Assembly: GCA_965231015.1 (NCBI GenBank)
Contig: OZ246408.1
Span: forward strand, 620,115 to 684,114
DNA length: 64,000 bases
Reading direction: 5' to 3'
DNA from: an uncultured Gammaproteobacteria bacterium
GTDB lineage: Bacteria; Patescibacteriota; Patescibacteriia; UBA9934; CAZDDW01
Shown here in pieces: positions 7,000 to 51,000 of this stretch; position 1 is the stretch's first letter, and each line of letters begins with the position of its first letter. Under the pieces are notes generated by a model, which did not search any database, had not been told where the DNA came from, and worked only from the letters and a program-made list of their open reading frames with translations. Made by a program: the position numbers and the translations under genes.

Positions 7000-8691
7000 T
7001 TATTTCTTTTGTTGAACTGGTTTGGCTGGTTTTTCTCCATTCTTGGGTCTATCATCATAGTGTTTAACTCTTCGTAAAACCAGCCAACGCAACAGAATAA
7101 TGATCAAGGCCGCGATAATTCCCCAACAGTAGTTCACAAGAATTGCAATGACTACCGGAATTAAGAAGGCCAACACCGGAAGCATGTAATACACCACCAT
7201 TCGCTTTTCATTCAAACGTTTCTTTTCGTTATAAATCCGTCGTCGGAACCATGAAACGGTTGATAGAATGACCCCAACAATCAAAATCCATAACAACCAA
7301 GGGCAAATCCAGGAACACACGCCTGGTAAAAACATGCAGGCACAACATGTTCCACTGGTGGCCGCGGCTGATTTATCATCGTCATCAACTGGAGCAGTAA
7401 CACTGGAACAACCCCCACAGTCATCCGGACAGTTTACACAAGTCTCATCCGGCTGACACACATCATCACCACACGTATCCGCACACTCACCACAATCTGC
7501 GGAGCAACTCTCACAATTTTCCCCACATTCTAAACGACATTCTCCGTCACCACAATACTTATCGCGGCACGGGTCACATTCACCACAATCATCCGGACAA
7601 TTTTCGCACCCCTCTCCACACTGACTATCACAAACCCCGTCTCCGCAATCACTATCACACTGATCCGGATCTAAGCATTCCCCACAATCACCCGGACAAT
7701 TTTCACACCCTTCGTCACATTCAGGTACACACATTCCATCACCGCAGGTTGAATCGTCACACGGACTTGGCTCATAACACTCACCACAGTCATCAGGACA
7801 CGTGTCACAAAATTCGTCGCACTCTTCCTGACACACTCCATCACCACAATCTACTTCAGCACACGGATCCTCTTCACACTCTCCACAGTCCCATGGACAA
7901 TTGTAGCAGGTCTCGTCACACTCCGGCTGGCAAACACCGTCACCGCAGTCTACAAAATCACACTCACCATGTGGCTCATCACCCGGACACTCACCACAAT
8001 CACCCGGACAGTTTTCACAGGTCTCGTCACACTCCGGCTGGCAAACACCGTCACCGCAGTCTACAAAATCACACTCACCGTGCGGCTCACCACCAGGGTC
8101 ATTAGTGGTTTCCTGACAATTGGCTCGAACTTCGGCTTCAGTTTGGTAAACACTGATTGCTAAACCGGTTCCGGGCACACACATAGGTTCTGAAACATAA
8201 TCTATTCCATACCAGCCAGTTGACGGATCATGATAACAACACCAAACCGGCCCCCCGGTTTGATCCCCCGGACACTCACCACAATCATCCGGACAAGAAT
8301 CACACGCCTCATCACATTCCTCATCACAAACCCCGTCTCCGCAGGTTACTTCACCACATGGGTCATCACCGGGACACTCTCCACAATCTTCCGGACACCA
8401 GGTGCATTCTTCGTCACACTCGATGTCACATACACCATCACCACACACAACCCCGTCACAAGGACCGGGTTCCTCCTCCTCGTGTTGGCAACATTCAGGA
8501 AAAGCAATACAACACTCATCCTGACAAGCCGTGTCTCCCTCACAACCAATATAACAATCATCAAAATATGGTTGTGACTCTCCACACTCGGAATACCCAT
8601 TCATGGCCTCAGCCGGAGCTACACCCGGCAAAAATAAAAACAGGCCAAGAATCAGTCCTGCTAATGCAGATAACCTAAAATACTTTGGCAT
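7000..8691 (-). CDS. Cysteine-rich tandem-repeat membrane protein (563 aa)
   Basis: Signal peptide MPKYFRLSALAGLILGLFLFLPGVAPAEA. At least 13 repeats follow, of the form CGDGVCxxECDExCxxCPxDCGEC with 6 Cys in ~27-37 aa. A poly-D linker and 2-3 C-terminal TM helices with a basic tail complete the protein. Confidence 0.7.
   Translation of the reverse strand: MPKYFRLSALAGLILGLFLFLPGVAPAEAMNGYSECGESQPYFDDCYIGCEGDTACQDECCIAFPECCQHEEEEPGPCDGVVCGDGVCDIECDEECTWCPEDCGECPGDDPCGEVTCGDGVCDEECDEACDSCPDDCGECPGDQTGGPVWCCYHDPSTGWYGIDYVSEPMCVPGTGLAISVYQTEAEVRANCQETTNDPGGEPHGECDFVDCGDGVCQPECDETCENCPGDCGECPGDEPHGECDFVDCGDGVCQPECDETCYNCPWDCGECEEDPCAEVDCGDGVCQEECDEFCDTCPDDCGECYEPSPCDDSTCGDGMCVPECDEGCENCPGDCGECLDPDQCDSDCGDGVCDSQCGEGCENCPDDCGECDPCRDKYCGDGECRLECGENCESCSADCGECADTCGDDVCQPDETCVNCPDDCGGCSSVTAPVDDDDKSAAATSGTCCACMFLPGVCSWICPWLLWILIVGVILSTVSWFRRRIYNEKKRLNEKRMVVYYMLPVLAFLIPVVIAILVNYCWGIIAALIIILLRWLVLRRVKHYDDRPKNGEKPAKPVQQKK
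7909..8079 (-). repeat. Near-perfect 111-bp tandem duplication inside the Cys-rich gene
   Basis: A 60-bp core GGTCTCGTCACACTCCGGCTGGCAAACACCGTCACCGCAGTCTACAAAATCACACTCACC occurs at 7909-7968 and again at 8020-8079, a 111-bp period (37 aa). The protein shows the duplicated unit CGECPGDEPHGECDFVDCGDGVCQPECDETC. Confidence 0.7.
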
Positions 8692-17861: not shown

Positions 17862-17897
17862 TTACACAAAAACCAAAATCCCGTCACTTAGACGGGA
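17862..17897 (-). terminator. Intrinsic terminator after rplU
   Basis: Minus strand: UCCCGUC-UAAGU-GACGGGA followed by UUUUGGUUUUUGUG. Confidence 0.5.
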
Positions 17898-17902
17898 CCT
17901 TG

Positions 17903-18261: not shown

Positions 18262-18735
18262 CTAATTTCCCCAATAAATGTCAAGATTATCTCCTGACTC
18301 AAGTTCATATTCCTCTGCAAAACCCGCAATTACCTCCAAAACCATATCGACCGGCTCACCTGACGAACGTCGCTCGATTTCATCATTTTTTGGAGCTGGC
18401 ACCGCAGTTTCAATACCGATTATTTTACCTTTATTCAGCCAAATTATATCAATATCAACTATCATTCCTTTCATCCAAAAAGTCTGAATTTCCGGTTCAT
18501 TATACACGAATAACATACCCTCTTTTCTACCCAAAGAACTGCGTCCAGACAACCCCTTTACCTTGTCCGGGACACTCCGAACCACCTCTGCCTGAATAAT
18601 AGTATCGTCCGGTAAAATTATGGTTGCCCGGCTTGGATCAACTGACTCCAGGGTGATTATCATCCAGGCAATTATAAGAACTGCGGTCGTGGTCACAGCC
18701 AGAAGAGTGATGATTTTTACCTGATGATTAGGCAT
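18262..18735 (-). CDS. DUF192 (COG1430) domain membrane-anchored protein
   Basis: 157 aa with an N-terminal TM helix, then MLFVY...FWMKGM...DIIWL, characteristic of DUF192. Confidence 0.65.
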   Translation of the reverse strand: MPNHQVKIITLLAVTTTAVLIIAWMIITLESVDPSRATIILPDDTIIQAEVVRSVPDKVKGLSGRSSLGRKEGMLFVYNEPEIQTFWMKGMIVDIDIIWLNKGKIIGIETAVPAPKNDEIERRSSGEPVDMVLEVIAGFAEEYELESGDNLDIYWGN

Positions 18736-19771: not shown

Positions 19772-21514
19772 TTATTCACTAAATGAAGTAGTGCGGTAAC
19801 GCGAATAATCAACACCGGTTTCTTGCCAGTCATTACTTGCCAATCCTGCTTTTTCAGACAAGGCGGTCATAAAATCCTCAAAAGTATCCATTTGTTCCCA
19901 TACGCTAGGCAAAAAAGTGGCACTATCTTCCCCCTTGGTTAGAATTACTCCATCCATATTTGGTTGAATAATGTTCAATTCAACTGCTTGAGCTTCAGAT
20001 AAAACAGAGATTTCAATCTTGATGTTTACCAACTCTTCCTCGGTCACCGCCTCAAACCGAGCATCATTAACCGCTGCATCAATAGCCTTGTCACGCACTG
20101 CCAAATAAAGCGGCTGCTCCGCCGTCAGACTACCAATACACCCTCGTAACTCATCTTGAGCCTCAAGCGTCACAAAGACGGCCAACTCCTGCTTCAACTG
20201 CTCATCTGTTGGTTCAATCGGTTCATAGATTTCACCTTCACGGGTTATATACCGCTCAATTGTAGACCGAGCCAATTGTAAAAGGTATGTCTGCTCGGCT
20301 TCAGACAAACTCACGGTGTTAAGTCCAACCTCTTCACCCGGTACACTATAAGCCACGGCCCCATAACCAACTACTCTGGTATCATCATTGGTTACATCTC
20401 CGGTGTTTGCATAATCCAACACCTTGGCTTCCCATCCTTCGCGACGTGCCATTATGTCAGCAACCAAAATCGGGTCAGTTCCACACGCGTTAACCTTAGA
20501 AGCGTCCGGTTCAAGCCCTTCAATAGCCTGTAAAGTGGTTTGATCAATCGGTTCAGCTGTTTCTGCATCCATATAATGAGACAAATCACTGCTAACAACT
20601 AACAATGTTTTTTCATCCATTATTTCTTTGAGCTCATTGGCAATCGTGATTCTGTCTTCATCTTCAATTTGACCGACCAAAATCGGAATAATGGTCGCAT
20701 CCGGCCAAATGTACTGAATAAAAGGCAGATGAATTTCAACAGGATGTTCATCTACAAACGCCACATCCTTGTAAAAAAACAATTCGTTGTCAACCAGATC
20801 AACATTTGATTCATCAATATCCGTTTCTCCGAGTGGGGTTCGCCAAGCATCATACTCGCTTAAAGCCACCCCCTCGAACTCTGTTTGGTGAGCAGAAGCC
20901 ATAATAATGACTCGATTGTAATCCTTGTTCATAACAGTCTTGTAGGCAGAGGCGTCTACGGATCCGGAGTAACGGTAAGCGGCGTGTGGAGCAATAATTG
21001 CCATCACATCCCTATTTTCGACTTTGTTGGTTGCATTCCAAAGTAGAGACTGAATTTGTTTTTCTAGAATTGATTTGCCTTCCGGATAAAATACTCCGGC
21101 CACACTTGGTGGGCGTACGTCTTTGGCTGGCATAGGCTCTTCGATTATTTCTTCTACTACCGGCTCAGTTTCTTCCTCTGAACTTTTGGTTAAAAATTCC
21201 AAGGAAGCTACTGCAACCAGCGAAAGAAAAACAAACACCACAGCAACAATCACCTTAGCCGGCGATTTCTTTTGCCCTGGTTCCTTGGTCTTTGTGGTCT
21301 TCTTACTCGACTTCTTTCTGGACTTTGACTTCTTGGTCGTTTTTTTAGTCCGAGTCTTCTTTGTGGAGGCTTTTCTGGTTTTTTTCTGCTTAGTCTTTTT
21401 TGGAGGTTCCTCCTGAACCTCTTCCTCCACGACTTCAGCTTTCTTCTTGGAACTTTTTTTAGCGGCCGATTTCCGTGGAGTCTTTTTCACAGTTTTTTTC
21501 TTAGTGGCGGCCAT
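19772..21514 (-). CDS. Fusion protein: Lys-rich histone-H1-like tail + TM + Memo-like (AmmeMemoRadiSam protein B) + AMMECR1 domain
   Basis: 580 aa. The N-terminus is KKKTVKKTPRKSAAKK repeats. The Memo region is AGVFYPEGKS...IIAPHAAYRYSGSVDASAYK. The C-terminal AMMECR1 region is FVTLEAQDELRGCIGSL...ARFEAVTEEEL. Confidence 0.65.
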   Translation of the reverse strand: MAATKKKTVKKTPRKSAAKKSSKKKAEVVEEEVQEEPPKKTKQKKTRKASTKKTRTKKTTKKSKSRKKSSKKTTKTKEPGQKKSPAKVIVAVVFVFLSLVAVASLEFLTKSSEEETEPVVEEIIEEPMPAKDVRPPSVAGVFYPEGKSILEKQIQSLLWNATNKVENRDVMAIIAPHAAYRYSGSVDASAYKTVMNKDYNRVIIMASAHQTEFEGVALSEYDAWRTPLGETDIDESNVDLVDNELFFYKDVAFVDEHPVEIHLPFIQYIWPDATIIPILVGQIEDEDRITIANELKEIMDEKTLLVVSSDLSHYMDAETAEPIDQTTLQAIEGLEPDASKVNACGTDPILVADIMARREGWEAKVLDYANTGDVTNDDTRVVGYGAVAYSVPGEEVGLNTVSLSEAEQTYLLQLARSTIERYITREGEIYEPIEPTDEQLKQELAVFVTLEAQDELRGCIGSLTAEQPLYLAVRDKAIDAAVNDARFEAVTEEELVNIKIEISVLSEAQAVELNIIQPNMDGVILTKGEDSATFLPSVWEQMDTFEDFMTALSEKAGLASNDWQETGVDYSRYRTTSFSE

Positions 21515-21547: not shown

Positions 21548-24163
21548 CTATAATTCAGCAGCCTTTTCAATCTCTATTTTTCCGCCTTTTTTAAGTACGA
21601 TTGTATCCCGCCGGGTAGCCTTGTCTTCTAAGAGCACACGAGCCACAGCATCGTCAACCTCATTTTGAATCACCCGACGTAGTGGGCGCGCCCCAAACTT
21701 TGGATCAAAGCCCTTTTCGGCTAATTCCTGCACCGCTGCATCTTCAGCCCGGAAATGTATTCCCTTGGCCTCCAATCGTTCCTCGACCTGACCAATCATT
21801 AAATAGGCAATCTGCACCACTTCATCCATTGCCAAAGGCTTAAAGACAATCACAGCATCAAACCGATTCAAAAATTCAGGACGGTAAATACCTTTTAGTT
21901 CTTCCTCAATTAAATGATTTTTGATCTGATCAAGCGGCGTACCTTGGCTAACTTCTGTTTGAATATATTCGGTTCCCGCATTAGAAGTAGCAATTAAAAC
22001 AACATTGGTAAAATCGATTGTTCGTCCGGCTCCGTCGGTTAATCGGCCATCATCCATGACCTGTAAAAACAGGTTCAAAATATCAGGGTGTGCCTTTTCC
22101 AGCTCGTCCAATAAAAGAAGGGTGAACGGATTTTCTCGAACCGCTTCCGTTAAAAGACCACCTTCACCTTTACCCCCAATCAATCTGGCAATACTGGACT
22201 GGTTCTGATACTCGGACATGTCAAACCGAATCATAGATTCTTCGCGACCAAAGTAGGCTTCGGCTGTGGTTTTAGCCAACTCGGTCTTACCCACTCCGGT
22301 TGGACCTAAAAACAAGAAGTTAGCTATTGGTCGGTTGTCGGATCTTAGCTCGGTTCTGGCTCGACGCAGCGCGGAAGCCACGGCATCAACCGCATCATTT
22401 TGCCCGATCATGCGTTCATGCAAAACCTCCTCAAGCTTGAGAAGCTTGGCTTTTTCTTCTTCAGCCACTTGTGACATTGGAATTTTAGTTTTTTCCGAAA
22501 TAATCCGAGCCACATCCTCGCGCGCCACCAAACTATTCGCACCCTTTTCTTTATTAACAGCTAGCGCAGTTTCCTCACATATTTCAATTGCCTTGGCCGG
22601 TAAAAACTGATCGTGCATGTACCGATCTGAAAGCTTCACCGCCTCTTCTACTGCAGCGTAAGAAAATACAACCTTGTTTTTGTACTCCATGACCCCGATC
22701 TTGGCCTCTAAAATCTGAATTGCTTCATTGATTTCCGGCTCATCAACCCGCACTTTTTGCAGAGCCTGACCAAGCGCCGTGCGTTCAATGGCTTGCGCGT
22801 ATGCCTCCGGAGTGGTGGTAGCAATCAAAAAAGTGAATCGTCGATTTAGAGCATCAATCAAAACCGAGGCCAAATCAACGGTCATTTCTCCACCGGCTGT
22901 CAACCCTGTGATTTGCTCAATATTTTCTACTACTAAAATAATGTTTTTTGACCGAGCAATTTCGTTTAAAACCATTAATAGCCGTTCCTGGACCACTTCG
23001 GGAGCGGCACCAGAAGTTAAATGTGGGATAGAGAGCCGGACCAAACGTTTATCACGCATTATTTGCGGAACTCGCTCCGATACCATGCGCTCGGCAATTC
23101 CATGCACAATCGATTGCTTTCCCACCCCCGGAGGTCCAACTAAAACCACGCTCTCATTTCCCCCTTCAATGACCCTAAAAATAGATTCCAACTCTTGTTC
23201 CCGACCAACCAACATTGGCAACCGACCATAAACCCCAGCCACGGTCAGGTCTTCTGAGACCTGGTCCAGCATTGGAGTGGCCACCGCAGTGTAGGCTCGG
23301 TTCATGGCTCCGGTTGGTTTTCTAGAAGCAGCTCGTTGATACTCCTCATAACGCTTGCGCAGCTCTTCATCAATTCGAATCCAGGCCACAGCGTTTTCAA
23401 CCTGCTCTCGTTCAATCCCCAGCCCATAAAACAATTCTTGAATAAATTCATCACGACGATAACTTTCTAGAAATAATTCTACCGGACTAACCAGTTCTCG
23501 CTCATGTTCATACGCATTTAAATATGCTGCCAGCAATGTCTCTCGGGTTTGATCAGAAAAGCCGACCTTGTTTTTTGGTAGACTGTTTAGTTTTCGATTA
23601 AGTGGCCCTTTGACCGTTTCAAAAGAAAGACCTAAGCGGACAAACAAAATTTTAATTGGATCAGCAGAAAGTGTCCCAACAAACAAATGGATCGGCTCTA
23701 CTGTTTGTCCAAACCGTTCAGCCAGCTCATATGCTTCCTCAACCGATTTCATACCACTCGCTGAATAAGCTCGAGCCACGTTGACCTTGGATTTTTTAGT
23801 TTCTTCTCCCAGATCATTTATCTCCGGCACCTCGCCCTCATAAGACTTCCTTTCCACAGTTAGCTTATGCCGAACCGCTTCAGACAACCGATAAAACAAA
23901 AACATTCCACCAAGAGCTGCCAACCAAAATGCTGCCGAGGCCAAACCTCCACGCAACCAATAATCAAGACTGGCTAATTTTTCTGGCGGACCAACAATAA
24001 CGGCGGAAAAAATAAAATAGGCAAAACAAACCAAAACTGCAGCAATCACCAAACCGTTGATGATTCCAGAAATAATATCTCGTGTTTTTTTCAACACTAA
24101 AGTGGCTCGGTCAATCCGCTCGCTCCAAATATATACCTTGTCCTTTAGTTCAAAACCGATCAT
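21548..24163 (-). CDS. ClpB/ClpC-family two-ring AAA+ chaperone with N-terminal transmembrane anchor
   Basis: 871 aa with two TM helices in the first ~90 aa. D1 has Walker A VLVGPPGVGKQS; D2 has LFLGPTGVGKTELAKT. A ClpB-like middle region and C-terminal domain are present. Confidence 0.8.
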   Translation of the reverse strand: MIGFELKDKVYIWSERIDRATLVLKKTRDIISGIINGLVIAAVLVCFAYFIFSAVIVGPPEKLASLDYWLRGGLASAAFWLAALGGMFLFYRLSEAVRHKLTVERKSYEGEVPEINDLGEETKKSKVNVARAYSASGMKSVEEAYELAERFGQTVEPIHLFVGTLSADPIKILFVRLGLSFETVKGPLNRKLNSLPKNKVGFSDQTRETLLAAYLNAYEHERELVSPVELFLESYRRDEFIQELFYGLGIEREQVENAVAWIRIDEELRKRYEEYQRAASRKPTGAMNRAYTAVATPMLDQVSEDLTVAGVYGRLPMLVGREQELESIFRVIEGGNESVVLVGPPGVGKQSIVHGIAERMVSERVPQIMRDKRLVRLSIPHLTSGAAPEVVQERLLMVLNEIARSKNIILVVENIEQITGLTAGGEMTVDLASVLIDALNRRFTFLIATTTPEAYAQAIERTALGQALQKVRVDEPEINEAIQILEAKIGVMEYKNKVVFSYAAVEEAVKLSDRYMHDQFLPAKAIEICEETALAVNKEKGANSLVAREDVARIISEKTKIPMSQVAEEEKAKLLKLEEVLHERMIGQNDAVDAVASALRRARTELRSDNRPIANFLFLGPTGVGKTELAKTTAEAYFGREESMIRFDMSEYQNQSSIARLIGGKGEGGLLTEAVRENPFTLLLLDELEKAHPDILNLFLQVMDDGRLTDGAGRTIDFTNVVLIATSNAGTEYIQTEVSQGTPLDQIKNHLIEEELKGIYRPEFLNRFDAVIVFKPLAMDEVVQIAYLMIGQVEERLEAKGIHFRAEDAAVQELAEKGFDPKFGARPLRRVIQNEVDDAVARVLLEDKATRRDTIVLKKGGKIEIEKAAEL

Positions 24164-42097: not shown

Positions 42098-45000
42098 TTA
42101 TTCTTCAATTAATGTATCAGACTCCTCAACCGGAGCTTCTTCAGGCTGGGCTGGCTCCTCTTCCACCACAGTTTCTTCCTGATCGGGATCAACATGTTGA
42201 GTCCCTACATCCTCTTCGACCTCTTCTTCGGTCATAGGCTCGTCATCTTCTACTTCTTCAACTACCTCCTCCTCTTCTTCTTCTCCTTCGGCTATCTCCT
42301 CATCAATTACTGGTTCTTCTTCAACCACCTCTTCCTCTTCTTCTACTGGTTCCTCTTCCTCCGGCTCTTCATCTATCTGTTCGTCCGGATCAACCATGCC
42401 TTCAACCGGATCATTTATATGACACTGGCCGTCCCAATAATAGTTTGTCAGCTGTTTGCACTCGTCCAGGGTATCACAGGCGTTCAAATTATCAACCCCA
42501 CACTCACCTTGATCAATAACCAGCTCAATTTCTTCAGTGGTTCCGTCTGAAATGAACAGCTTGGCATTATTTGAACCAAAAGCGTGCCAACTGAATTCAA
42601 CGCTCTCGCCATACATCTTATCTATCTCAATGTTAAATCCGGTTAAAGTTACATCTTTGATAATGTAGTCAATGTCCTCATGTAAATAGTTCATGAGAGT
42701 AGCAGTAACAATTGGTTGATATTGATACTCTTCCTCAAATTCAACCTGAACATTGGTCTCGTATTTCAGGATGCGAGCCAGACCAACCGTATCACCGTTA
42801 AAGGTAGTGTGTTTCTTTACCACCAAATTATCAACCTCGCCACTCATAACGAGAGTCGAACCACTTCCCTGTTCAACAGACTCAGTTTCTTGAATATCAT
42901 TCATACTATTTTGTATTGTCTCAATCACTCCCTGTTGATCCTGAATTGATTTCATCACAAGCGGAATAAAACTCTTATAATCCACCATCTTATACCCGTC
43001 CGAACGAGTGGTTACGGCAATTGGATAAATATCTTCAACCTGTTGAGCAATTACCCCGTGGTAGAATGTTTCATCATCGTCTGTAAAAGCTGATCTGTAT
43101 CGGAAATCCACAATCTCAACGGCCATTAAATCTTCAATGGAAAGTTCAGTAGCGGTGATATCCCGCTTCAAGCGCTCGTCTGACGGAGCTGTGGTATCAA
43201 TTGTATTTTGTCCAATGTAAAGAGTAGCTGAGCCTGTACCGTGGGTTTCGTCATCAATTAAATTATCCCCACTATCAACACCGATTGTCACACCAGAAGC
43301 TACCACTAATCCGCCGTTAGTTGGATCAGTGTCGCCAATACCAACGATTCCAGAACTAGATAAACGCATTACTTCTGAACCACTGGTTGAGAAGCCTAAA
43401 GTATCGGCCGAAATTCGGTACATTCCAGTGTTAGAGTCGTCGTTGAACCGGTATGATGGAGAACCAGCTGTTCCGTTTGCGTTAGCAAACGAACTGGCTC
43501 TAACTTGTCCAACAACCTGGAATTTAGTTGAAGGTGAGTCCGTACCAATTCCAACCCTCTCATTAGTAGTATCAATGTTCAAAATTGAAGTACCACCATC
43601 TGCATCTAAGAATTGGAAGCCGTTGGTTGAGTCAGTGCTATTTTGGAAAGTTAATAGATCATTAGTGGTATCGAAGGTTACTGCAGTTTCATCACCATCA
43701 GCCCCAATGTGTAAGGTGGCTGGGCCAAGATATAAATCCTGCCAACGAACTGTGCTTGAACCAAGGTCAAAGGTGTCATCTGCTGATGGAAGAAGGTCGT
43801 CACTTAATATAAAGGTTGTGGTATCGTGTCTTAAATATTCTGTTGTGGCATTGTTGTAATACAAGTACTCATCCAGGGTGATGTTACCATCAGCCTCAAT
43901 ATCATCGGCAACTAAAAGGTCGCTAGTCCCATCGATGTTGCTAGCCACACCACCTCCAACATCAAGCAGAGCCGCTGGACTGTCATCCCCAATTCCCACA
44001 TCTTCTAAAAAGTAGCTTTCCCCGGCTGAAACATAGAGGGCAAATCCACTACTTTGTGTATTTAGTTCCAATAAGTTTGCCGTGGCCGAAGAATTGGTGT
44101 CGCGGAAGCTGGCAAAAGCAGAAGCGGTCGCCGCTGTGCCTCGACGAGCATCAAATACGGAACCGGTACCATTATTGGTCAGGCTTATCATGTTAATGTT
44201 TGAATCTTGGTCAGCACTTAAAACACCCCCTGCGCCATTTTGATCAATCTCAATTGCGTTTCCGGTACCGTCATTTTGAATTTTCAAGACATCCTGATCT
44301 GAACCATCGTCTTCAGTAAATGATACTAGTGGTCCGTCAGCATCAACAGCCGCACGGCGTGAATACACATTCAAACCAATTCCCGGTGCATCGTTTCGAA
44401 CAAACAAAGCCCCGGATGAACTGGTGGCAAACCCAACATCACCAATTTGATCTATCAATAGCGCATTACCTGTACCATCATTGGTCAGATACATTACGTT
44501 TTGATCTGATGCACCATCCTCATAGAGCTCAAACAAGGCATCATCCGTGGTAGCTGCGTCTTCATTTCTGTATAAATAAAGTGCCCCGGCTCCGCCACCG
44601 GCCGTAACTCTTAAACTGGCGGCGTTATTGGTGCTAGCATCACCGATATGAGTAATCGACACAGCATAATTACTGGTGTCAGTTCCACGTACAGCCAACA
44701 TCTCAGAAGGACTATTGGTACCAATTCCCAAATATTTGTTTGTGTCGTCCCAGAAAAGGTTGGCATTATCTTCATCCAAATCCCCGGAAGCATCAGCAAA
44801 CATAACTGAACCGGTAGTAAAGCTAGAATCAAGAGAGCCGGACAAAGTTCCGTAAATTGTGCCATCGACTTCAAGGTCGTCGGCTACCAATAAGTCATCT
44901 GTTCCGTCGATGAAGTTAACAACTCCGCCACCGACATCTAACATGGCCGAAGGTGATGGATCTCCAATCCCAATATACCCCGTATTATCTGTGATCCTTA

Positions 45001-48000
45001 ACCTTTCCGTAGGTACCCCGACCCCATTATCTGTTGCAAAGCTGTGACGGGTGGTGGCATAGAAAGAGAAGTAACCATCTCCAAAGTCAGCGACACCATT
45101 ACTATCAGCTAAAATTTTAGTATTGTGAGCAGCATTTCCGATTTCAATATAATTTCCAACATTATCATACTGAATCGAACTAACGCTTGATCCTCCATCA
45201 TTAAAGTAGATCCAATCTGTTACTCGGATATCACCAGAGACATCAAGTTCAACCCCTGGTGTATTCGTCCCAATACCTAACCGATTATTGCCATCATCCC
45301 AGAATAAGTTGGTGTTATCTTGACTTAATAACCCGGAAGAACCGATAAACGGCATGGAGCCGGTAGTCATATCGGCAATGGATAACGTCTCACCGGTGTT
45401 TAATAACAGATCATCGCCCGGGTTGGTTGGTGATAAATCAGTTCCGGTCTTGGACCAATACGATGACCCTGCACCCAATGAGGCGGTATAAGTTCCAAGA
45501 GCGTTCAAAGCATGAACAATAGAGGTCGAGGTCTCACCGCCGGCACCAATTGTTGAACCAATAGATCCATCATCGGCAAAAATTTCCCCGGCATCATTTA
45601 ATAAATCGTCTCCAAGAGCAGAACCGGTCTGAGTAAAGTAAAGGCTTGGCTCTTGATTATCCCGGAAATGGATCAATCCTCCGCCACCAGATGAATCAGC
45701 GTTCAAAGTGATTAAAGCTCCGCCATTATTTACAGAATCAACTTCAAAATCAACTTCTGAATTACCATTTCCTGCCGTGGCGTGCACATAAAAACGAGCA
45801 TCACCGTTAGTTGACGGATTGTTGCTGATATTAAATTGAGCTATGGAGTCACCATTGGTATTCGTGTTTTGCAGATACACTTGGAAATCAGTGTCTCCGT
45901 TAGTGGAGTTAGAGGTTACCCCGCGATAAATACCTTGCACCTCATTTCCATCACCATTATCCTGAACTAAAAATTGAGCATACCGATTACCCGACATTAA
46001 CATGTCGTCTCCTGTGTGCATAGCCACTACTTGTGTATCAATTCCAATATCATCCGGGTCAATAAAGTTGAACAAACCAACCAGTCCGGTATTCCCTCCC
46101 AAACTTCCTTCGTTGGAATATGGATCAATGATTAAACCACCGGTTAAGGTTGTAAAGTCCACCCCGTCCCCTAGAACCGAATATCCTCCACCGGAATAAC
46201 TATTGTTCATGTAGGCGAGTCCGGATCCAAAATCAATGGCCGGCGGATTGTTGGTGACATCGTTTTGATTAATGGTCAAGGCGGCGTTATTGCTTGTATC
46301 CGGAACTGTAATTTCTACTGCCCCACTGTCCGCAGTGATTGATCGGCCGGCTCCGGCGCCGCCAGTGTCATATGACGCATCCAGAGTTCCGCCGCCGGCA
46401 CCGCCAAAATTCACCACGTAATTTCCCAAACTGTTCAGAGCATGCACAATAGACGTTGAGGTTTCACCACCTCCTCCTATGACTGAACCAAGCGTACCGG
46501 TTGAGCTAAAAATTTCCCCAGCACTATTCAACAAATCGTCTCCCAATGCCGAGTTATACTGCGTAAAATTCAGAGACTCGTTGTCATCCTCAAACTCAAT
46601 CCATGACCTTTGGTTTGGATCCAAGTCAGTGGTGGCCGATATAGTAATGTAGGCGTTTCCAACATATCCCACCCCTTCTTTGTCAGCCTCAATCCAGGTT
46701 TGAGCATCTCCACCGTCGTCGCTATTACGTGAACGTACATGGCTTACAGCATCACTAGAGCCACCGCCATCTGCAATTTCAGAATAAAATTGTGCCTCCA
46801 CATCGTTATCTGAACCAGCATTTTCTAAAGCGGCAATGGTGGCACTTCTGGTTGGCGTACCCGTAAAGAAGTTTTGATTAGAAGCATAAATGGCTGAACC
46901 TTGGGTTTCTCGACCGCTTGTGACCGCGCCGGTAAAATTATAGATTCCGGCTATCCCCATGTCACCGGCTGCAAAATAAGATTCATTGCCATAGGGATCA
47001 TAAATCAAACCACCGGTTGTGGTTCCCAAATCTGGTCCATCACTCATCATGAAAAAATTTGTGGTCAAATCAGCCTCAAGCACCTGCGGTCCGGTTCCGG
47101 AAAACTCGATCGAAGCTCCGCTGTCGGTGTTATTGGTGAGCTGTAAAACTGAAGATTCAACCGTGGTATCATTTTGAACGATTTCCAATCCAACATTACC
47201 AGAACCATCCGGTACAATGATTTGTACTTCATCAGAATCTGCCGTAATAATTCTTCCAGCCCCAGACCCACCGAAGTCATAAGCCATATCCAAAGTTCCA
47301 CCGGCTCCGGCACCAATGCCGGCGGCATATGTTCCGACCGCATTAATAGCGTGAATTAGCGAAAGTGAAGACTCGCTGAAACTTGATCCGATCGTACCGC
47401 TCGAAGAATAAATCTCACCAGGAGCGTTTAGTAAGTCTCCGCCCAGGGCAACACTATCTTGCGTCAAATACAAATTATTTTCTCTTTCATCAACAAAATA
47501 TACATCACCGTCCGGCGACAACAACTGAATTGTTGAAGTACCTCCGGCTGAAGCACTTAAAGTGATAGTTGAATCGTCGGCTATACTGTTATTTGCCTGA
47601 AGTAAAATAGTGGATTCACCGGACGTTCCGGTTGTTTTGCTTGCTCCGACTAAAAATTCTGCATCTCCGGTGTTCGTGGCACTAACCACGTTAAAAGTCA
47701 TGTCGCTGTCACCGGTTGCGGCTGATGTGGTGCGAGCATCAAAATCAATGGACACATCACCGGTTACATCGGTCTCGTTTAAAATAATTCTTGAGTAACG
47801 CGTGATAGTACCGCCGAAATCGTCATCACTATTATTCAAAACGATTTGTTGAGTAGGTACCCCGGCTGTAGCGGCACCAATAAAATTCATAATTCCGGAA
47901 AATCCCTCTGAACCACCAAGCGATGGGTCATTGCCGTACGGATCAATGAATAATCCTGAAGTTAGATCACTAAACTGGGCTCCGTTACCGACAATGCTCC

Positions 48001-51000
48001 AACCACTGGAAAGGTCGTTGGTAATAGCCGCGTAACCGGATCCGAAATCAATTCCACCCGGATAATTGGTCGTATCGTTTTGAGTGATTGATAAAGCGGC
48101 GGTGTTTGAGTTGTCAGGGACTGTAATTTGAACAGCCCCGCTGTCGGCTGTAATTAGTCGACCAGCTCCGGCACCGCCGAAATCATAGGCTTGATCAAGC
48201 GTTCCACCGGCTCCGGCTCCCAGACCGGCTGCATAAGTACCAACCGCGTTTAAAGCATGGACGAGTGAATCAGAGGTTTCACCAGAAACCGATCCGATCG
48301 TTCCGGTGGCTTCAAAAATTTCACCAGCGGCGTTTAATAAATCATCACCAAAGAAAGCACTGTCTTGGGTAAAAGCAAGGTCATCCCGCGTATCCGTAAA
48401 GCTGATAAAACCATCTCCGGTACCATTCAAAACCCGAGCCTGAATTGCTGTGTAAGCATTTCCGTTAGCGGCAACGTTATCAATATATGAACCAAGACTG
48501 GTGTAGGCATGGTGACCTAAATCTTCGTTTATAGATTTAATCTCTACAACTGCATCGTTATCTCCGGTTTCAGCTACCTCAGCGACTAATTGAGCCCGAA
48601 CGTCTTGTCCTCCTTCAGCATCAGTTTCCCAAAGGTATAAATACACAGAACGAGTTGGACTGTCGTTTGGAAAATCATTCATGGCTTGCATGAAAGACAA
48701 GGAACGATCTTGACTCGCCTCATCTGCTCCAATGTAATTTCCGAAACCGACGGCACCCTGATTCAAACCAGTATAAACTGGGTTGTTACCATATGGATCT
48801 ATCATGAATCCAGCATTTATATCTGCAACCGTAACATCGTCAGCTATAGCGATCCAATTACTGGTCAGGTCAGTTAAAAGCGAGTGTCCTCCAACACCGG
48901 TAAACTCAATCGCCGCCCCATCGCCGGCATTACTGATCGTTAAAGCTGACGGGTCATTTGTAGCATCATTTTGAGTAATGGTAAGCACGGAATGATTGGA
49001 ATTGTTCGGGGTAATGAATTGGATCGTTCCCGAGTCAGCCGTAATGGTTCTACCGTTACCGGCACCACCAAAGTCGTAAGCCTGATCCAGTGTACCACCG
49101 CCGCCGGCACCAATTCCGGCCGCATAAGACCCAACCGCATTCAGGGCATGTACTAAAGAATCGGATGTTTCACCAACACCTATTGAAGACCCAATGGTTC
49201 CAGTACTACTGAAGACCTCTCCCGGAGCATTTAACAAGTCATCACCCAAGCTAGAGCCGTATTGAGTGAAGGTCAGCTGGTCATTTTCGTCACGGAATGA
49301 AATCCATGAATCCATGGTGCCAGTATCATCAACCGCGGCTTCTAACTCAATATATGCATCTCCACTATTTCCGGCTCCACGTTTGTGAGCCTCAATGTGT
49401 ACGACCGAATCTCCACCATTATCTTCATGACTTGATTCTAAAACAGCTTCGGCGTCATCTGTGCCACCACCCGGTTCAATCTGAGCCAATGATCTGACTT
49501 CGACATTTCCATCTTCATCTGTTTCAAAAGCACCCACAACAGCCCAACGAGTTGGCGAACCGGTCAGATGGTTTGCGTTACCGGAATAATTAACTGATCC
49601 GGCTAAATTATTTCCGGCTGTTGCCGCTCCAACATAGTTATAATAACCGACCACCCCGTAACCAACCGCTGAAAAGGCCGGACTTACTCCGTAAGGATCA
49701 GCCAATAAACCGCCTGTTGACGTGGTGCCCATGTCGTTGGAGTCTCCCATAACATAATAATTGGAGGTAATATCTTCAAAAGTGGTTGAATAAACACTGG
49801 ATCCGGAAAAATGCAGACCAGATGCTCCGGAAGCATTGTTGGTAATCTGAACAGCCGGGTCAGTAGCCGCGGTATTGTTGTGCGTGGCTAAAAGACTGCT
49901 TCCTTGACTGTAGTTCCTAATCTTTAGTGCCGCGTCAGTAAAATCTTTTCCGTGTGTCACCTCTAAGGCACGCTCAGCCATAGGATTTCCAAAAGTCACA
50001 CTGCCTTCTAAAACATCCGCACTGACCGATTCAGCCGGAAATCCAGGATTACCTCCAATCACGGTTTGAACCGTTGCCACTGTTCCACTAGGATCAAGAG
50101 AAACGAGCTGGTACATACCATCATGAGCCGCTGAGCCAGACACCAAAAATGTTGTGGAAGCTGATTCTGTAATATTTAAACTGCGAAGATTAGTTGAAAA
50201 AGTGATTGTGTTTCCTGATAAAGTTACTGCCTCTGTCAATAATTCATAAGAACTGGTCAAACCAAGAGTTCTTTCATTTCCCATAATTGTCACACCGAAA
50301 GCAAATTCACCAACTGCTGGTTCAGAATTCACAACCAAGGTTGCAGGAAAATCAGTAAAGGTCGTCGTTCCAAGTCCAGAATTCAATTTTAGTAAAGAGT
50401 CACTAAAAGTAGCTGTTTCTGCTTGTCCGGCATCACTAATGTACACCGGCCCGCTGTCAGCTATAATGCTTCGCCCGACACCGGCACCTCCGGTATCATA
50501 TGACTGATCAAGCGTGCCGCCACCGCCACCTAACGAATCTACATATTCCTTATCAACCAAAGATCGGTTTGTGTAGTTTGATGAATAATCAGCTGCATAA
50601 ACAGCTCCTTCAAAACCAACTACATCACTGGTAATCGATATGTTTTCCGGAGAAACATCAAGACTGGTACTTGTAAGATTATTATCATCACTTCTTTCAA
50701 AAGACAGGTCATTTGTTCGCATCCAAGTATTCATGATTTCACCCGTAGCAGAATTCTCAGCCGTGTAGAAAACTCCTCCTGAATCCTGATTCAGTTCGCT
50801 AAAATAAATACCCGTGTTCATTGATTGAATCCATTCATCCTCCCCAATCTCTACCATCATTCCCGTATTCTCAATAATAAAATAATTTCCGTTCAAATCA
50901 AACGTACGATCTTCAGAAAGAGAACCGTCGGAATTGAAGATATTAATACTTGCATTATCTACATATTCCTTATCAACCAAAGATCGGTTTGTGTAGTCAG

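What the first reader, a model, noticed from the sequence alone, without database searches (positions are those of the whole stretch)
19772..21514. Single-polypeptide Memo-like + AMMECR1 fusion with a histone-H1-like lysine-rich N-terminal tail, no adjacent radical-SAM partner
The AmmeMemoRadiSam trio is normally three separate genes (AMMECR1 protein A, Memo-like protein B, and a radical SAM activase). Here B and A are fused in the order Memo then AMMECR1, preceded by ~95 aa of KKKTxKK repeats and a TM segment. No radical SAM gene is seen in the window. This may be a minimal form of the system or one with repurposed function, possibly DNA- or membrane-associated.
Basis: partly seen in the sequence, partly recalled or inferred. 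Interest (0 to 1): 0.55.

Follow-up and report, generated by a model that had tools for sequence, protein, structure and literature searches.

The report
Membrane-anchored Memo–AMMECR1 fusion protein
This gene encodes a common, already described fusion of two enzyme domains of unknown function (Memo-like and AMMECR1); its distinctive features are a single membrane anchor that should place the enzyme outside the cell and a long lysine-rich tail that stays inside.

Summary
ORF 19772..21514 (-) encodes a 580-aa protein with five parts: a disordered Lys-rich tail (aa 1-85, net +29), one TM helix (86-109), an acidic linker, a Memo/AmmeMemoRadiSam-B domain (134-388) and an AMMECR1/protein-A domain (410-578). 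Both curated models score far above cut-off. No radical SAM gene lies in the 64 kb.

The B-then-A fusion is not unusual: all 120 best homologues have it, JGI names some of them "protein B/protein A", and the fusion was reported in 2007. A missing adjacent radical SAM gene is also common, in about one third of 63 fused loci from other genomes.

Three things are specific to this candidate-phyla-radiation clade (one relative is named Uhrbacteria):
- The polycationic tail with signal-anchor is conserved in nine homologues down to 44% identity.
- The charge distribution predicts an N-in/C-out topology, so the enzyme faces outward.
- The gene order ClpB-like, fusion, WecA-like GT4, DUF192, L21 is conserved.

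Whether the genome has a radical SAM partner elsewhere could not be tested.

By-product: most fused homologues look exported. Their radical SAM partners then carry Tat-type signals, and fused MFS/spermidine-synthase genes (once TatA/TatC) lie nearby. This argues against the RNA-modification hypothesis for that branch.

The parts
19772..21514 (-). Complete ORF of 580 aa plus stop: TM-anchored fusion of AmmeMemoRadiSam protein B (Memo-like) and protein A (AMMECR1)
   Evidence: an identical protein (P0001) occurs on an NCBI contig of 1,002,985 bp and on Logan contigs
21260..21514 (-). aa 1-85: disordered polycationic Lys/Thr/Ser-rich tail (36 K+R, net +29), predicted to be cytoplasmic
   Evidence: (pLDDT below 50). 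It is not a DNA tandem repeat. It is conserved as a compositional feature in P0002-P0009
21188..21259 (-). aa 86-109: single transmembrane helix (signal-anchor)
   Evidence: hydropathy 2.7 over 19 aa; AlphaFold2 helix 86-109
21116..21187 (-). aa 110-133: acidic flexible linker (net -7), predicted to be on the outer side
   Evidence: an acidic post-TM linker is conserved in all nine clade members
20351..21115 (-). aa 134-388: Memo-like / LigB-fold domain (AmmeMemoRadiSam protein B) carrying the conserved PHAxYxYSG (H177), ASAH (H209), SSDLSH (D310, H313) and ACG (C344) motifs
   Evidence: Foldseek TM-score 0.79-0.80 to human MEMO1
20288..20350 (-). aa 389-409: inter-domain linker and start of the first AMMECR1 helix
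19781..20287 (-). aa 410-578: AMMECR1 domain (AmmeMemoRadiSam protein A) with the RGCIG (457-461) and DARF (484-487) active-site motifs
   Evidence: motifs as defined in PMC2034487; Foldseek TM-score 0.79 to PH0010, PDB 1VAJ
21548..24163 (-). Conserved upstream neighbour: ClpB/ClpA-like double AAA+ ATPase (871 aa) with two N-terminal hydrophobic segments
   Evidence: the same neighbour occurs in relatives at 44-48% identity
18728..19768 (-). Conserved downstream neighbour, 3 nt after the stop codon: Glycos_transf_4, a WecA/TagO/MraY-family polyprenyl-phosphate sugar-phosphate transferase
   Evidence: TIGR02380 109 bits, below the equivalog cut-off; the same adjacency occurs in relatives
18262..18735 (-). 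DUF192 protein with an N-terminal TM segment, overlapping the GT4 stop by 8 nt
17874..17902 (-). Strongest terminator-like hairpin of the region, just after the L21 gene (17903..18214): probable end of the co-directional gene string

Best explanation
The gene encodes a type-II (N-in/C-out) single-pass membrane protein.

- Shown: it is an intact fusion of AmmeMemoRadiSam protein B (Memo-like, LigB-fold, with the metal-binding His/His/Asp/His/Cys motifs) and protein A (AMMECR1, with the catalytic-type RGCIG Cys and the DxRa motif). This is a common and already described architecture.
- Inferred from the positive-inside rule: the disordered 85-aa tail (net +29) stays in the cytoplasm. The helix at aa 86-109 spans the membrane. 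The acidic linker and both catalytic domains lie on the outer face of the cytoplasmic membrane of a cell without an outer membrane (candidate phyla radiation; one relative is named Uhrbacteria).
- Inferred from phylogeny and comparison: it belongs to the large 'exported' branch of fused B/A proteins. It has become a lineage-specific variant in which the tail acts as a strong topogenic and retention element. The tail may also bind anionic lipid or nucleic acid.
- Inferred from gene order: it is co-transcribed in a conserved string of membrane ClpB-like AAA+, fusion, WecA-like GT4, DUF192, L21.
- Speculative step: the outward-facing Memo metal centre and the AMMECR1 thiol act together on a membrane-embedded or envelope substrate and not on RNA. 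A polyprenyl-linked or lipid molecule is the best guess, given the GT4 neighbour and the isoprenoid link proposed by Burroughs et al. 2019 (recalled from memory; the paper was not held).
- Open: whether it works without a radical SAM partner. No partner lies within 19 kb upstream or 42 kb downstream.
For: - Domain identity.
- Catalytic motifs: all 37 family-invariant columns are retained, including H177, H209, D310, H313, R457-G458-C459-G461, D484 and R486; C344 is nearly invariant. The motifs are located.
- Anatomy: AlphaFold2 model with mean pLDDT 85.5 and pTM 0.75, a disordered 1-81, a helix at 86-109 and two confident domains.
- Topology: tail net +29 against linker net -7. All nine clade members have tails of +13 to +30 and post-TM linkers of -3 to -7.
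- Exported branch: 37 of 63 complete fused genes from other genomes have a Sec signal, lipobox or anchor before the Memo domain. Their rSAM partners carry a Tat-like or hydrophobic N-terminus in 19 of 24 cases, against 0 of 17 for cytoplasmic-type fusions (Fisher p = 3e-7). An archaeal relative has the order Tat-rSAM, fusion, TatC, TatA, spermine-synthase-like gene. The window's clade nests among TM-anchored forms in the exported half of an NJ tree.
- Conserved synteny with ClpB-like and GT4 in four genomes at 44-100% identity.
- Precedent for working without an rSAM (established knowledge): eukaryotes have MEMO1 and AMMECR1 but no AmmeMemoRadiSam rSAM.
Against: - Topology rests on the positive-inside rule alone. 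No experimental or dedicated-predictor result was available.
- The rSAM partner may simply be unlinked. In every other lineage examined the family is tied to an rSAM. A CPR Shapirobacteria genome has one adjacent to a cytoplasmic-type fusion. Many Patescibacteria rSAMs of this family exist.
- The GT4, DUF192 and small-TM-protein neighbours recur in none of the 63 other fused loci, and the ClpB-like gene in only one. The envelope-lipid link is therefore clade-specific and could be incidental synteny in a compact genome.
- Five loci pair a signal-bearing B/A with a signal-less rSAM, so shared compartment is not an absolute rule.
- No biochemical function is known for any prokaryotic member.
Confidence: 0.55

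Rival explanations
1. It is an ordinary three-component AmmeMemoRadiSam system whose radical SAM enzyme is encoded elsewhere on the 1-Mb chromosome. The fusion is then the usual B/A component and still depends on that enzyme, either as a pathway partner or as a maturase acting before export.
For: - About one third of fused loci of either type have no rSAM within the DNA fetched (13 of 37 exported-type and 9 of 26 cytoplasmic-type; Fisher p = 1.0).
- The family's rSAM is found in CPR: Shapirobacteria (L029), and Gottesman-, Beckwith- and other Patescibacteria.
- The nearest archaeal TM-anchored relatives have an rSAM directly upstream.
- All catalytic motifs of B and A are intact.
Against: - 0 of 6 TM-anchored bacterial loci (five attributed to CPR, one unnamed) have an rSAM within about 10 kb.
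- None lies in 64 kb here.
- Neither of two saturated homologue searches returned a hit on the 1,002,985-bp contig or one named Uhrbacteria. This is weak evidence, because only 120 of about 8000 hits are listed.
- No MFS/spermidine-synthase or Tat gene is in the window.
Confidence: 0.4
2. The Lys-rich tail and TM segment are not translated. The real protein would start at Met128 (MPAKDV...), giving an ordinary cytoplasmic B/A fusion, and the upstream 127 codons would be a chance open frame.
For: - Met128 lies 6 residues before the start of the Memo model match, much as in cytoplasmic-type homologues.
- No obvious Shine-Dalgarno sequence precedes the ATG at 21514.
Against: - Nine homologues at 44-86% identity keep a basic tail, a hydrophobic 19-24-mer and an acidic linker in frame, although the tail sequences themselves diverge.
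- The upstream gene ends 33 nt before the long ORF's ATG. A start at Met128 would leave about 415 nt non-coding in a densely packed string.
- AlphaFold2 predicts a confident helix at 86-109.
Confidence: 0.03
3. This is the first reader's reading: the catalytic domains are cytoplasmic and tethered to the membrane (N-out/C-in), or the tail acts as a nucleoid/DNA-binding, H1-like module that brings the enzyme to DNA or RNA, in line with the older RNA-base-modification hypothesis for AMMECR1.
For: - AMMECR1 has the RAGNYA fold, which typically binds nucleic acids or nucleotides, and an RNA modification role was proposed for it (PMC2034487, PMC4075521).
- Polycationic disordered tails can bind nucleic acids (general knowledge).
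- Five loci pair a hydrophobic-N-terminus B/A with a signal-less rSAM.
Against: - Thirty-six K/R residues on the N-side and a net -7 linker on the C-side make translocation of the tail very unlikely.
- No DNA-binding family is hit.
- In the wider family the hydrophobic N-termini are classical cleavable Sec or lipoprotein signals, which cannot leave the domain inside. They co-vary with Tat signals on the partner.
Confidence: 0.07

Closest known systems
Fused AmmeMemoRadiSam system protein B / protein A (TIGR04336 + TIGR04335; Pfam Memo PF01875 + AMMECR1 PF01871) of Proteobacteria, Acidobacteriota, Omnitrophota, Bacteroidota and DPANN archaea
   Same: Same two domains in the same order. All family-invariant residues are retained, at 33-40% identity over about 77-85% of the length. 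Most of these proteins also carry an N-terminal export signal or anchor.
   Different: An 85-aa polycationic tail precedes an uncleaved signal-anchor, where the others have a short Sec or lipoprotein signal. There is no adjacent radical SAM, MFS/spermidine-synthase or Tat gene. The neighbours are clade-specific: ClpB-like AAA+, WecA-like GT4 and DUF192.
Human MEMO1 (PDB 3BCZ, 7KQ8 iron-bound, 7L5C copper-bound)
   Same: Same fold (Foldseek TM-score 0.79-0.80, 28-29% identity, E about 1e-22). The PHAGY, SH and SSDxxH motifs align; from my own knowledge these hold the metal ligands His49, His81, Asp189 and His192.
   Different: MEMO1 is a stand-alone cytosolic eukaryotic protein with no AMMECR1 fusion, no membrane anchor and no radical SAM partner.
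AMMECR1 family (human AMMECR1; archaeal PH0010 1VAJ, MM0484 1ZQ7, ST0229 1WSC)
   Same: Same double-RAGNYA fold (TM-score 0.79 to 1VAJ). The RGChG and DxRa active-site motifs of PMC2034487 are present as RGCIG 457-461 and DARF 484-487.
   Different: Those are stand-alone cytoplasmic or nuclear proteins proposed to act on RNA. Here the domain is fused to Memo and predicted to be extracytoplasmic.
Class III extradiol (LigB / PCAD-type) ring-cleaving dioxygenases
   Same: Distant fold relatives of the Memo domain (Foldseek E 1e-4 to 2e-8 to TK2203, 2-aminophenol 1,6-dioxygenase, DOPA dioxygenase and YgiD).
   Different: Only 10-14% identity. The protein scores as Memo and not as LigB, and no aromatic-catabolism genes lie nearby.
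Lys-rich tails of histone H1 and of bacterial nucleoid proteins (Chlamydia Hc1, Pseudomonas AlgP, mycobacterial HupB); from my own knowledge
   Same: Low-complexity, disordered, strongly cationic Lys-rich sequence.
   Different: There is no globular H1/winged-helix or HU domain. The composition is K/T/S and not K/A/P. The tail lies immediately N-terminal to a TM helix, so it is a juxtamembrane cytoplasmic tail. The resemblance is compositional only.

Membership tests
AmmeMemoRadiSam system (Haft's three-gene system) | Protein B: Memo-like domain matching TIGR04336 above its cut-off | tested here: met
   222.7 bits against a cut-off of 26, aa 134-388; Pfam Memo 177.6 bits
AmmeMemoRadiSam system (Haft's three-gene system) | Protein A: AMMECR1 domain matching TIGR04335 above its cut-off | tested here: met
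   170.8 bits against a cut-off of 99, aa 410-578; Pfam AMMECR1 152.5 bits
AmmeMemoRadiSam system (Haft's three-gene system) | Radical SAM enzyme (TIGR04337, motif GCNxxCxxCQNW) encoded next to or near A and B | tested here: not met
   No such ORF or tblastn match anywhere in the 64-kb window, nor within about 10 kb in three close relatives
AmmeMemoRadiSam system (Haft's three-gene system) | Radical SAM enzyme of the family present somewhere in the same genome | not testable with these tools
   The 1,002,985-bp source contig could not be read beyond the window. Two homologue searches with rSAM queries were saturated and uninformative
Memo / PCAD-Memo superfamily | Conserved metal-site motifs (PHAGY-type His, SH His, SSDxxH Asp/His, CG Cys) | tested here: met
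   H177, H209, D310 and H313 are invariant and C344 is nearly invariant in a 30-sequence alignment. They align to the MEMO1 motifs and were located
AMMECR1 family | RGChG and DxRa active-site signatures (PMC2034487) | tested here: met
   RGCIG at 457-461 and DARF at 484-487; R457, G458, C459, G461, D484, R486 and F487 are invariant
Extracytoplasmic branch of the system (described in this report) | Export signal or signal-anchor in front of the Memo domain | tested here: met
   TM helix 86-109 flanked by +29 on the N-side and -7 on the C-side; the clade nests among TM-anchored forms
Extracytoplasmic branch of the system (described in this report) | Partner rSAM with a Tat-type signal, and/or a fused MFS/spermidine-synthase neighbour | tested here: not met
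   Neither is present in the window
Histone H1-like / nucleoid-associated proteins | A recognised DNA-binding domain (linker-histone winged helix, HU, Hc1) or demonstrated DNA binding | tested here: not met
   No Pfam or NCBIfam hit in aa 1-133 apart from a spurious 15-bit PknB juxtamembrane match. DNA binding itself cannot be tested with these tools

The most novel reading that the evidence does not exclude
In this CPR clade the Memo-AMMECR1 pair would be a cell-surface enzyme that needs no radical SAM partner. It would be held in the membrane by a polycationic cytoplasmic tail and would work with the co-operonic WecA-like transferase on a polyprenyl-linked or lipid envelope molecule. More broadly, the 'AmmeMemoRadiSam system' would have a large extracytoplasmic branch that I could not find described in the searchable literature (the key paper, Burroughs 2019, could not be read). 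In that branch even the radical SAM enzyme is Tat-exported, alongside a fused MFS/spermidine-synthase protein and, in one archaeon, TatA and TatC. If so, the native substrate of this ancient, disease-linked enzyme pair (MEMO1, AMMECR1) would be a membrane or envelope molecule and not RNA.
Probability: 0.25. Interest if true: 0.7.

Novelty: new variant of a known kind. Interest (0 to 1): 0.35.

Why it matters
The gene as flagged is mostly ordinary. The fusion is common and was published in 2007, and automatic pipelines already name its relatives. Its value is as a pointer.

- MEMO1 and AMMECR1 are conserved from archaea to humans and are linked to human disease, yet neither has an agreed biochemical function. 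The leading bioinformatic idea for AMMECR1 is RNA base modification.
- A clade in which the intact enzyme pair is predicted to sit outside the membrane, with no partner nearby, gives a compartment-based constraint on the substrate. So does a much larger set of homologues with Sec, lipoprotein or Tat signals. A substrate that is reached outside the cytoplasm is unlikely to be cellular RNA.
- A Tat-exported radical SAM enzyme would itself be unusual, because it needs SAM and a reductant outside the cytoplasm. It would be worth direct testing.

For the window's gene alone the pay-off is modest: a lineage-specific membrane-anchored variant in a reduced genome.

Tried and rejected
1. Hypothesis that exported fused forms are the ones lacking a radical SAM partner: rejected. 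rSAM genes flank exported-type and cytoplasmic-type fusions at the same rate, 24 of 37 against 17 of 26.
2. Finding this genome's own rSAM through homologue searches. I queried with a Woesearchaeota partner and a CPR Shapirobacteria partner, looking for hits on the 1,002,985-bp contig. Both lists were saturated (about 8000 hits, 120 shown) and therefore inconclusive.
3. Over-extended-ORF artefact for the tail: rejected on conservation, gene spacing and the structure model.
4. Origin of the tail by recent DNA tandem duplication: rejected. Only a weak 12-nt repeat of 2.2 copies was found.
5. GT4, DUF192 and the ClpB-like gene as family-wide partners: rejected. The GT4, DUF192 and small-TM-protein neighbours recur in none of the 63 other fused loci, and the ClpB-like gene in one.
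6. Burroughs et al. 2019 (JBC; PMC6664185), the main paper on Memo-AMMECR1 systems, is not held. Its content is cited from memory only.
7. A literature search with the term 'Memo' was swamped by 'memory'.
9. Searches for 'AmmeMemoRadiSam' and for periplasmic or Tat radical SAM enzymes found no functional study.
Full report
OBSERVATION. The minus-strand ORF 19772..21514 is real and encodes 580 aa.
- Pfam finds Memo (aa 136-386, E 3.9e-52) and AMMECR1 (aa 412-578, E 1e-44).
- Sequence search against solved structures hits human MEMO1 (E 6e-19) and the archaeal AMMECR1 homologues PH0010, MM0484 and ST0229.
- An AlphaFold2 model built on a 30-sequence alignment has mean pLDDT 85.5 and pTM 0.75. 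It shows aa 1-81 disordered, one long helix at 86-109, a flexible linker and two confident domains.
- Foldseek matches those domains to MEMO1 (TM-score 0.79-0.80, including the Fe- and Cu-bound structures) and to PH0010 (0.79).

THE TAIL.
- Residues 1-85 are 38% Lys, with 36 K+R and net charge +29. They hold the most K/R-rich 40-residue stretch of any ORF in the window, 22 of 40 against 15 of 40 for the next.
- The tail is not a DNA tandem repeat.
- It is genuine coding sequence. The nine closest homologues (P0001-P0009, 44-86% identity) all have a basic tail of 36-87 aa (net +13 to +30), a strongly hydrophobic segment of about 19 aa or more, and an acidic linker (net -3 to -7), even though the tail sequences themselves diverge.
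- The upstream gene ends 33 nt before the ATG.

IS THE FUSION UNUSUAL? No.
- All 120 best hits in the 5.8-billion-protein collection carry both Pfam domains. 2142 of the 8000 candidates scored pass E<=1e-10. JGI calls several of them 'AmmeMemoRadiSam system protein B/AmmeMemoRadiSam system protein A'.
[quoted passage not shown] They also defined the RGChG and DxRa active-site motifs (PMC2034487). Here both motifs are present, as RGCIG 457-461 and DARF 484-487.
- The Memo motifs PHAAYRYSG (H177), ASAH (H209), SSDLSH (D310, H313) and ACG (C344) are also intact. All but C344 (nearly invariant) fall on invariant alignment columns. The protein therefore looks catalytically competent by every sequence criterion available.

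IS THE MISSING RADICAL SAM GENE UNUSUAL? Only mildly.
- The window has no candidate. The single CxxxCxxC-bearing ORF (7000..8691) is a Cys-repeat protein. tblastn with 47 genuine partners, recognised by the hallmark GCNxxCxxCQNW motif, finds nothing better than E 0.03 over 27 aa.
- Among 63 complete fused genes fetched from GTDB species-representative genomes, 22 also have no rSAM in the DNA fetched (up to about 10 kb each side). The rate is the same for both topological classes: 13 of 37 and 9 of 26.
- Among TM-anchored bacterial relatives the absence is consistent.
- The nearest archaeal TM-anchored relatives do have one directly upstream. A CPR Shapirobacteria genome has a cytoplasmic-type fusion with an adjacent rSAM.
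- I could not read the rest of the 1,002,985-bp source contig. Two attempts to catch a same-contig rSAM through homologue searches were saturated. Genome-wide absence is therefore untested.

TOPOLOGY AND THE WIDER FAMILY.
- The charge distribution (+29 before the helix, -7 after it) gives a strong positive-inside signal for N-in/C-out. That would place both enzyme domains outside the cytoplasmic membrane (inference).
- This fits the family. Reading the N-termini of the 120 homologues shows that most have classical Sec signal peptides, lipoboxes or N-terminal anchors, and only about a quarter start directly at the Memo domain.
- I first guessed that exported forms would be the ones without an rSAM. 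That was wrong.
- What the data show is that the partner's N-terminus co-varies with that of the fusion. Of 24 exported-type loci with an rSAM, 15 rSAMs have a twin-arginine motif followed by a hydrophobic stretch (for example SRRHFL, SRREFL, DRRGFL, SRRDFL) and 4 have a hydrophobic N-terminus. Of 17 cytoplasmic-type loci, none has either (Fisher p = 3e-7).
- The Tat-type proteins are true family members (TIGR04337 356-381 bits, cut-off 220), with the domain starting at residue 84-101.
- 104 of the 120 homologues closest to the Woesearchaeota rSAM also have Tat-like signals.
- A fused MFS/spermidine-synthase protein (NF037959, PF01564; 700-790 aa) lies nearby in 16 of 37 exported-type loci and in 0 of 26 cytoplasmic-type loci (p = 5e-5).
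- In an archaeal locus (L090) the order is Tat-rSAM, fusion, TatC, TatA, then a 716-aa spermine-synthase-domain protein.
- Five exported-type loci have a signal-less rSAM, so the rule is strong but not absolute.
- A rough NJ tree separates a mostly proteobacterial cytoplasmic clade from the exported forms. It places the window's clade as a monophyletic group next to other TM-anchored CPR and DPANN proteins.

LOCAL CONTEXT. The gene sits in a tight co-directional string:
- a 200-aa and a 131-aa protein of unknown function;
- a ClpB/ClpA-like AAA+ ATPase with two N-terminal hydrophobic segments;
- a 33-nt gap, then the fusion;
- a 3-nt gap, then a Glycos_transf_4 protein best matching WecA (109 bits, below the equivalog cut-off) ahead of MraY;
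- an 8-nt overlap, then DUF192, then L21, followed by the strongest terminator-like hairpin of the region.

The ClpB-like, fusion, GT4 order is kept in relatives at 44-48% identity. The GT4, DUF192 and small-TM-protein neighbours are absent from all 63 other fused loci, and the ClpB-like gene recurs in only one. The synteny is therefore clade-specific.

MECHANISM.
- Shown: an intact B/A fusion with a TM helix and a polycationic tail, with conserved synteny and no rSAM within 19 kb upstream or 42 kb downstream.
- Inferred: a type-II membrane protein with an outward-facing Memo metal centre and AMMECR1 thiol, and a tail that acts as a topogenic and retention element and may bind anionic lipid or nucleic acid.
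- Speculative: the substrate is a membrane or envelope molecule, possibly polyprenyl-linked. This rests on the WecA-like neighbour and on my recollection that Burroughs et al. 2019 linked Memo systems to 'nucleotide base and aliphatic isoprenoid modification'. That paper was not held, although it is cited in PMC7159879 for 'Memo-Ammecr1 systems'.
- An extracytoplasmic location is hard to reconcile with the RNA-modification proposal for AMMECR1 (PMC2034487, PMC4075521), at least for this branch.
- Eukaryotes use MEMO1 and AMMECR1 without this rSAM (established knowledge), so function without it has a precedent. The unlinked-partner rival remains about as likely.

VERDICT.
- The fusion is already known and common. 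The specific combination of polycationic tail, signal-anchor, clade-specific operon and no partner nearby is a new variant of a known kind.
- Interest for the finding itself is modest, at 0.35. The more interesting result is the by-product: an apparently extracytoplasmic, Tat-associated version of the whole system.

Noticed in passing
L007-L086, L090 (for example L013:13471-14661, L019:8615-9892, L027:8629-9879, L090:8763-10004): Radical SAM enzymes of the AmmeMemoRadiSam family (TIGR04337 above cut-off) often carry an N-terminal extension of 60-100 aa with a twin-arginine motif and a hydrophobic stretch. This occurs only where the neighbouring fused B/A protein has an export signal: 19 of 24 against 0 of 17 loci (p = 3e-7). 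104 of 120 further homologues also look Tat-type. A Tat-exported radical SAM enzyme would be unusual, and I found no paper describing it.
   Followed up: partly
L090:8763-15414: In an archaeal contig (GCA_028279655.1) the genes run Tat-signal rSAM, fused Memo-AMMECR1, TatC, TatA, then a 716-aa spermine-synthase-domain membrane protein. The system is physically clustered with the Tat translocase genes.
   Followed up: partly
16 loci, for example L050:12140-14392, L027:11382-13748, L055:6936-9110: A 'fused MFS/spermidine synthase' protein (NF037959, PF01564; 700-790 aa, polytopic) neighbours exported-type fused genes in 16 of 37 loci and cytoplasmic-type fused genes in 0 of 26 (p = 5e-5). It may be a fourth component of the extracytoplasmic system. 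One guess is that it supplies a SAM-derived compound across the membrane.
   Followed up: partly
L019:8615-9892, L051:8552-9832, L055:4106-5362, L058:4657-5901, L059:8485-9723: In a subgroup of the Tat-type rSAMs, the extension between the signal and the rSAM domain contains a conserved A-R-[YF]-W...CxxCH...H-x-H motif (CLSCH, CEDCH, CADCH, CVECH, CLKCH). This is the c-type haem-binding signature, or else another metal site, and could be a built-in electron entry point.
   Followed up: no
L009, L052, L075, L076, L086: Five loci pair a fused B/A carrying a clear signal peptide or lipobox with an rSAM that has no signal. They are exceptions to the co-variation. They are compatible with the rSAM acting on B/A before export, as anaerobic sulfatase maturases act on sulfatases, or with mis-called start codons.
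   Followed up: partly
window 21548-24163 (-): The ClpB/ClpA-like double AAA+ ATPase upstream has two N-terminal hydrophobic segments (about aa 33-55 and 70-92) where a normal Clp_N domain would be. It therefore looks membrane-anchored, and it is the conserved upstream neighbour of the fusion in relatives at 44-48% identity.
   Followed up: partly
window 7000-8691 (-): A 563-aa protein with a signal-like N-terminus carries nine CxxxCxxC motifs, most about 31-37 residues apart, and has no NCBIfam hit. It is a Cys-rich repeat protein of unknown function.
   Followed up: no
window 42098-52798 (-), continuing to 57301: A giant 3566-aa ORF with a signal-like N-terminus lies downstream of three further genes for apparently secreted or anchored proteins (333, 867 and 265 aa) on the same strand. 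This is probably a cell-surface or adhesin cluster of the kind seen in episymbiotic CPR bacteria.
   Followed up: no
P0012, P0046, P0081, P0040: The closest relatives of the CPR clade outside it include proteins from DPANN archaea (named Nanohalarchaeota and Woesearchaeota) and P0040, from an unnamed archaeal MAG. Two of them (P0046 and P0081) have a shorter basic tail before the TM helix. This suggests either gene exchange or parallel retention in the two groups of small-genome organisms.
   Followed up: partly
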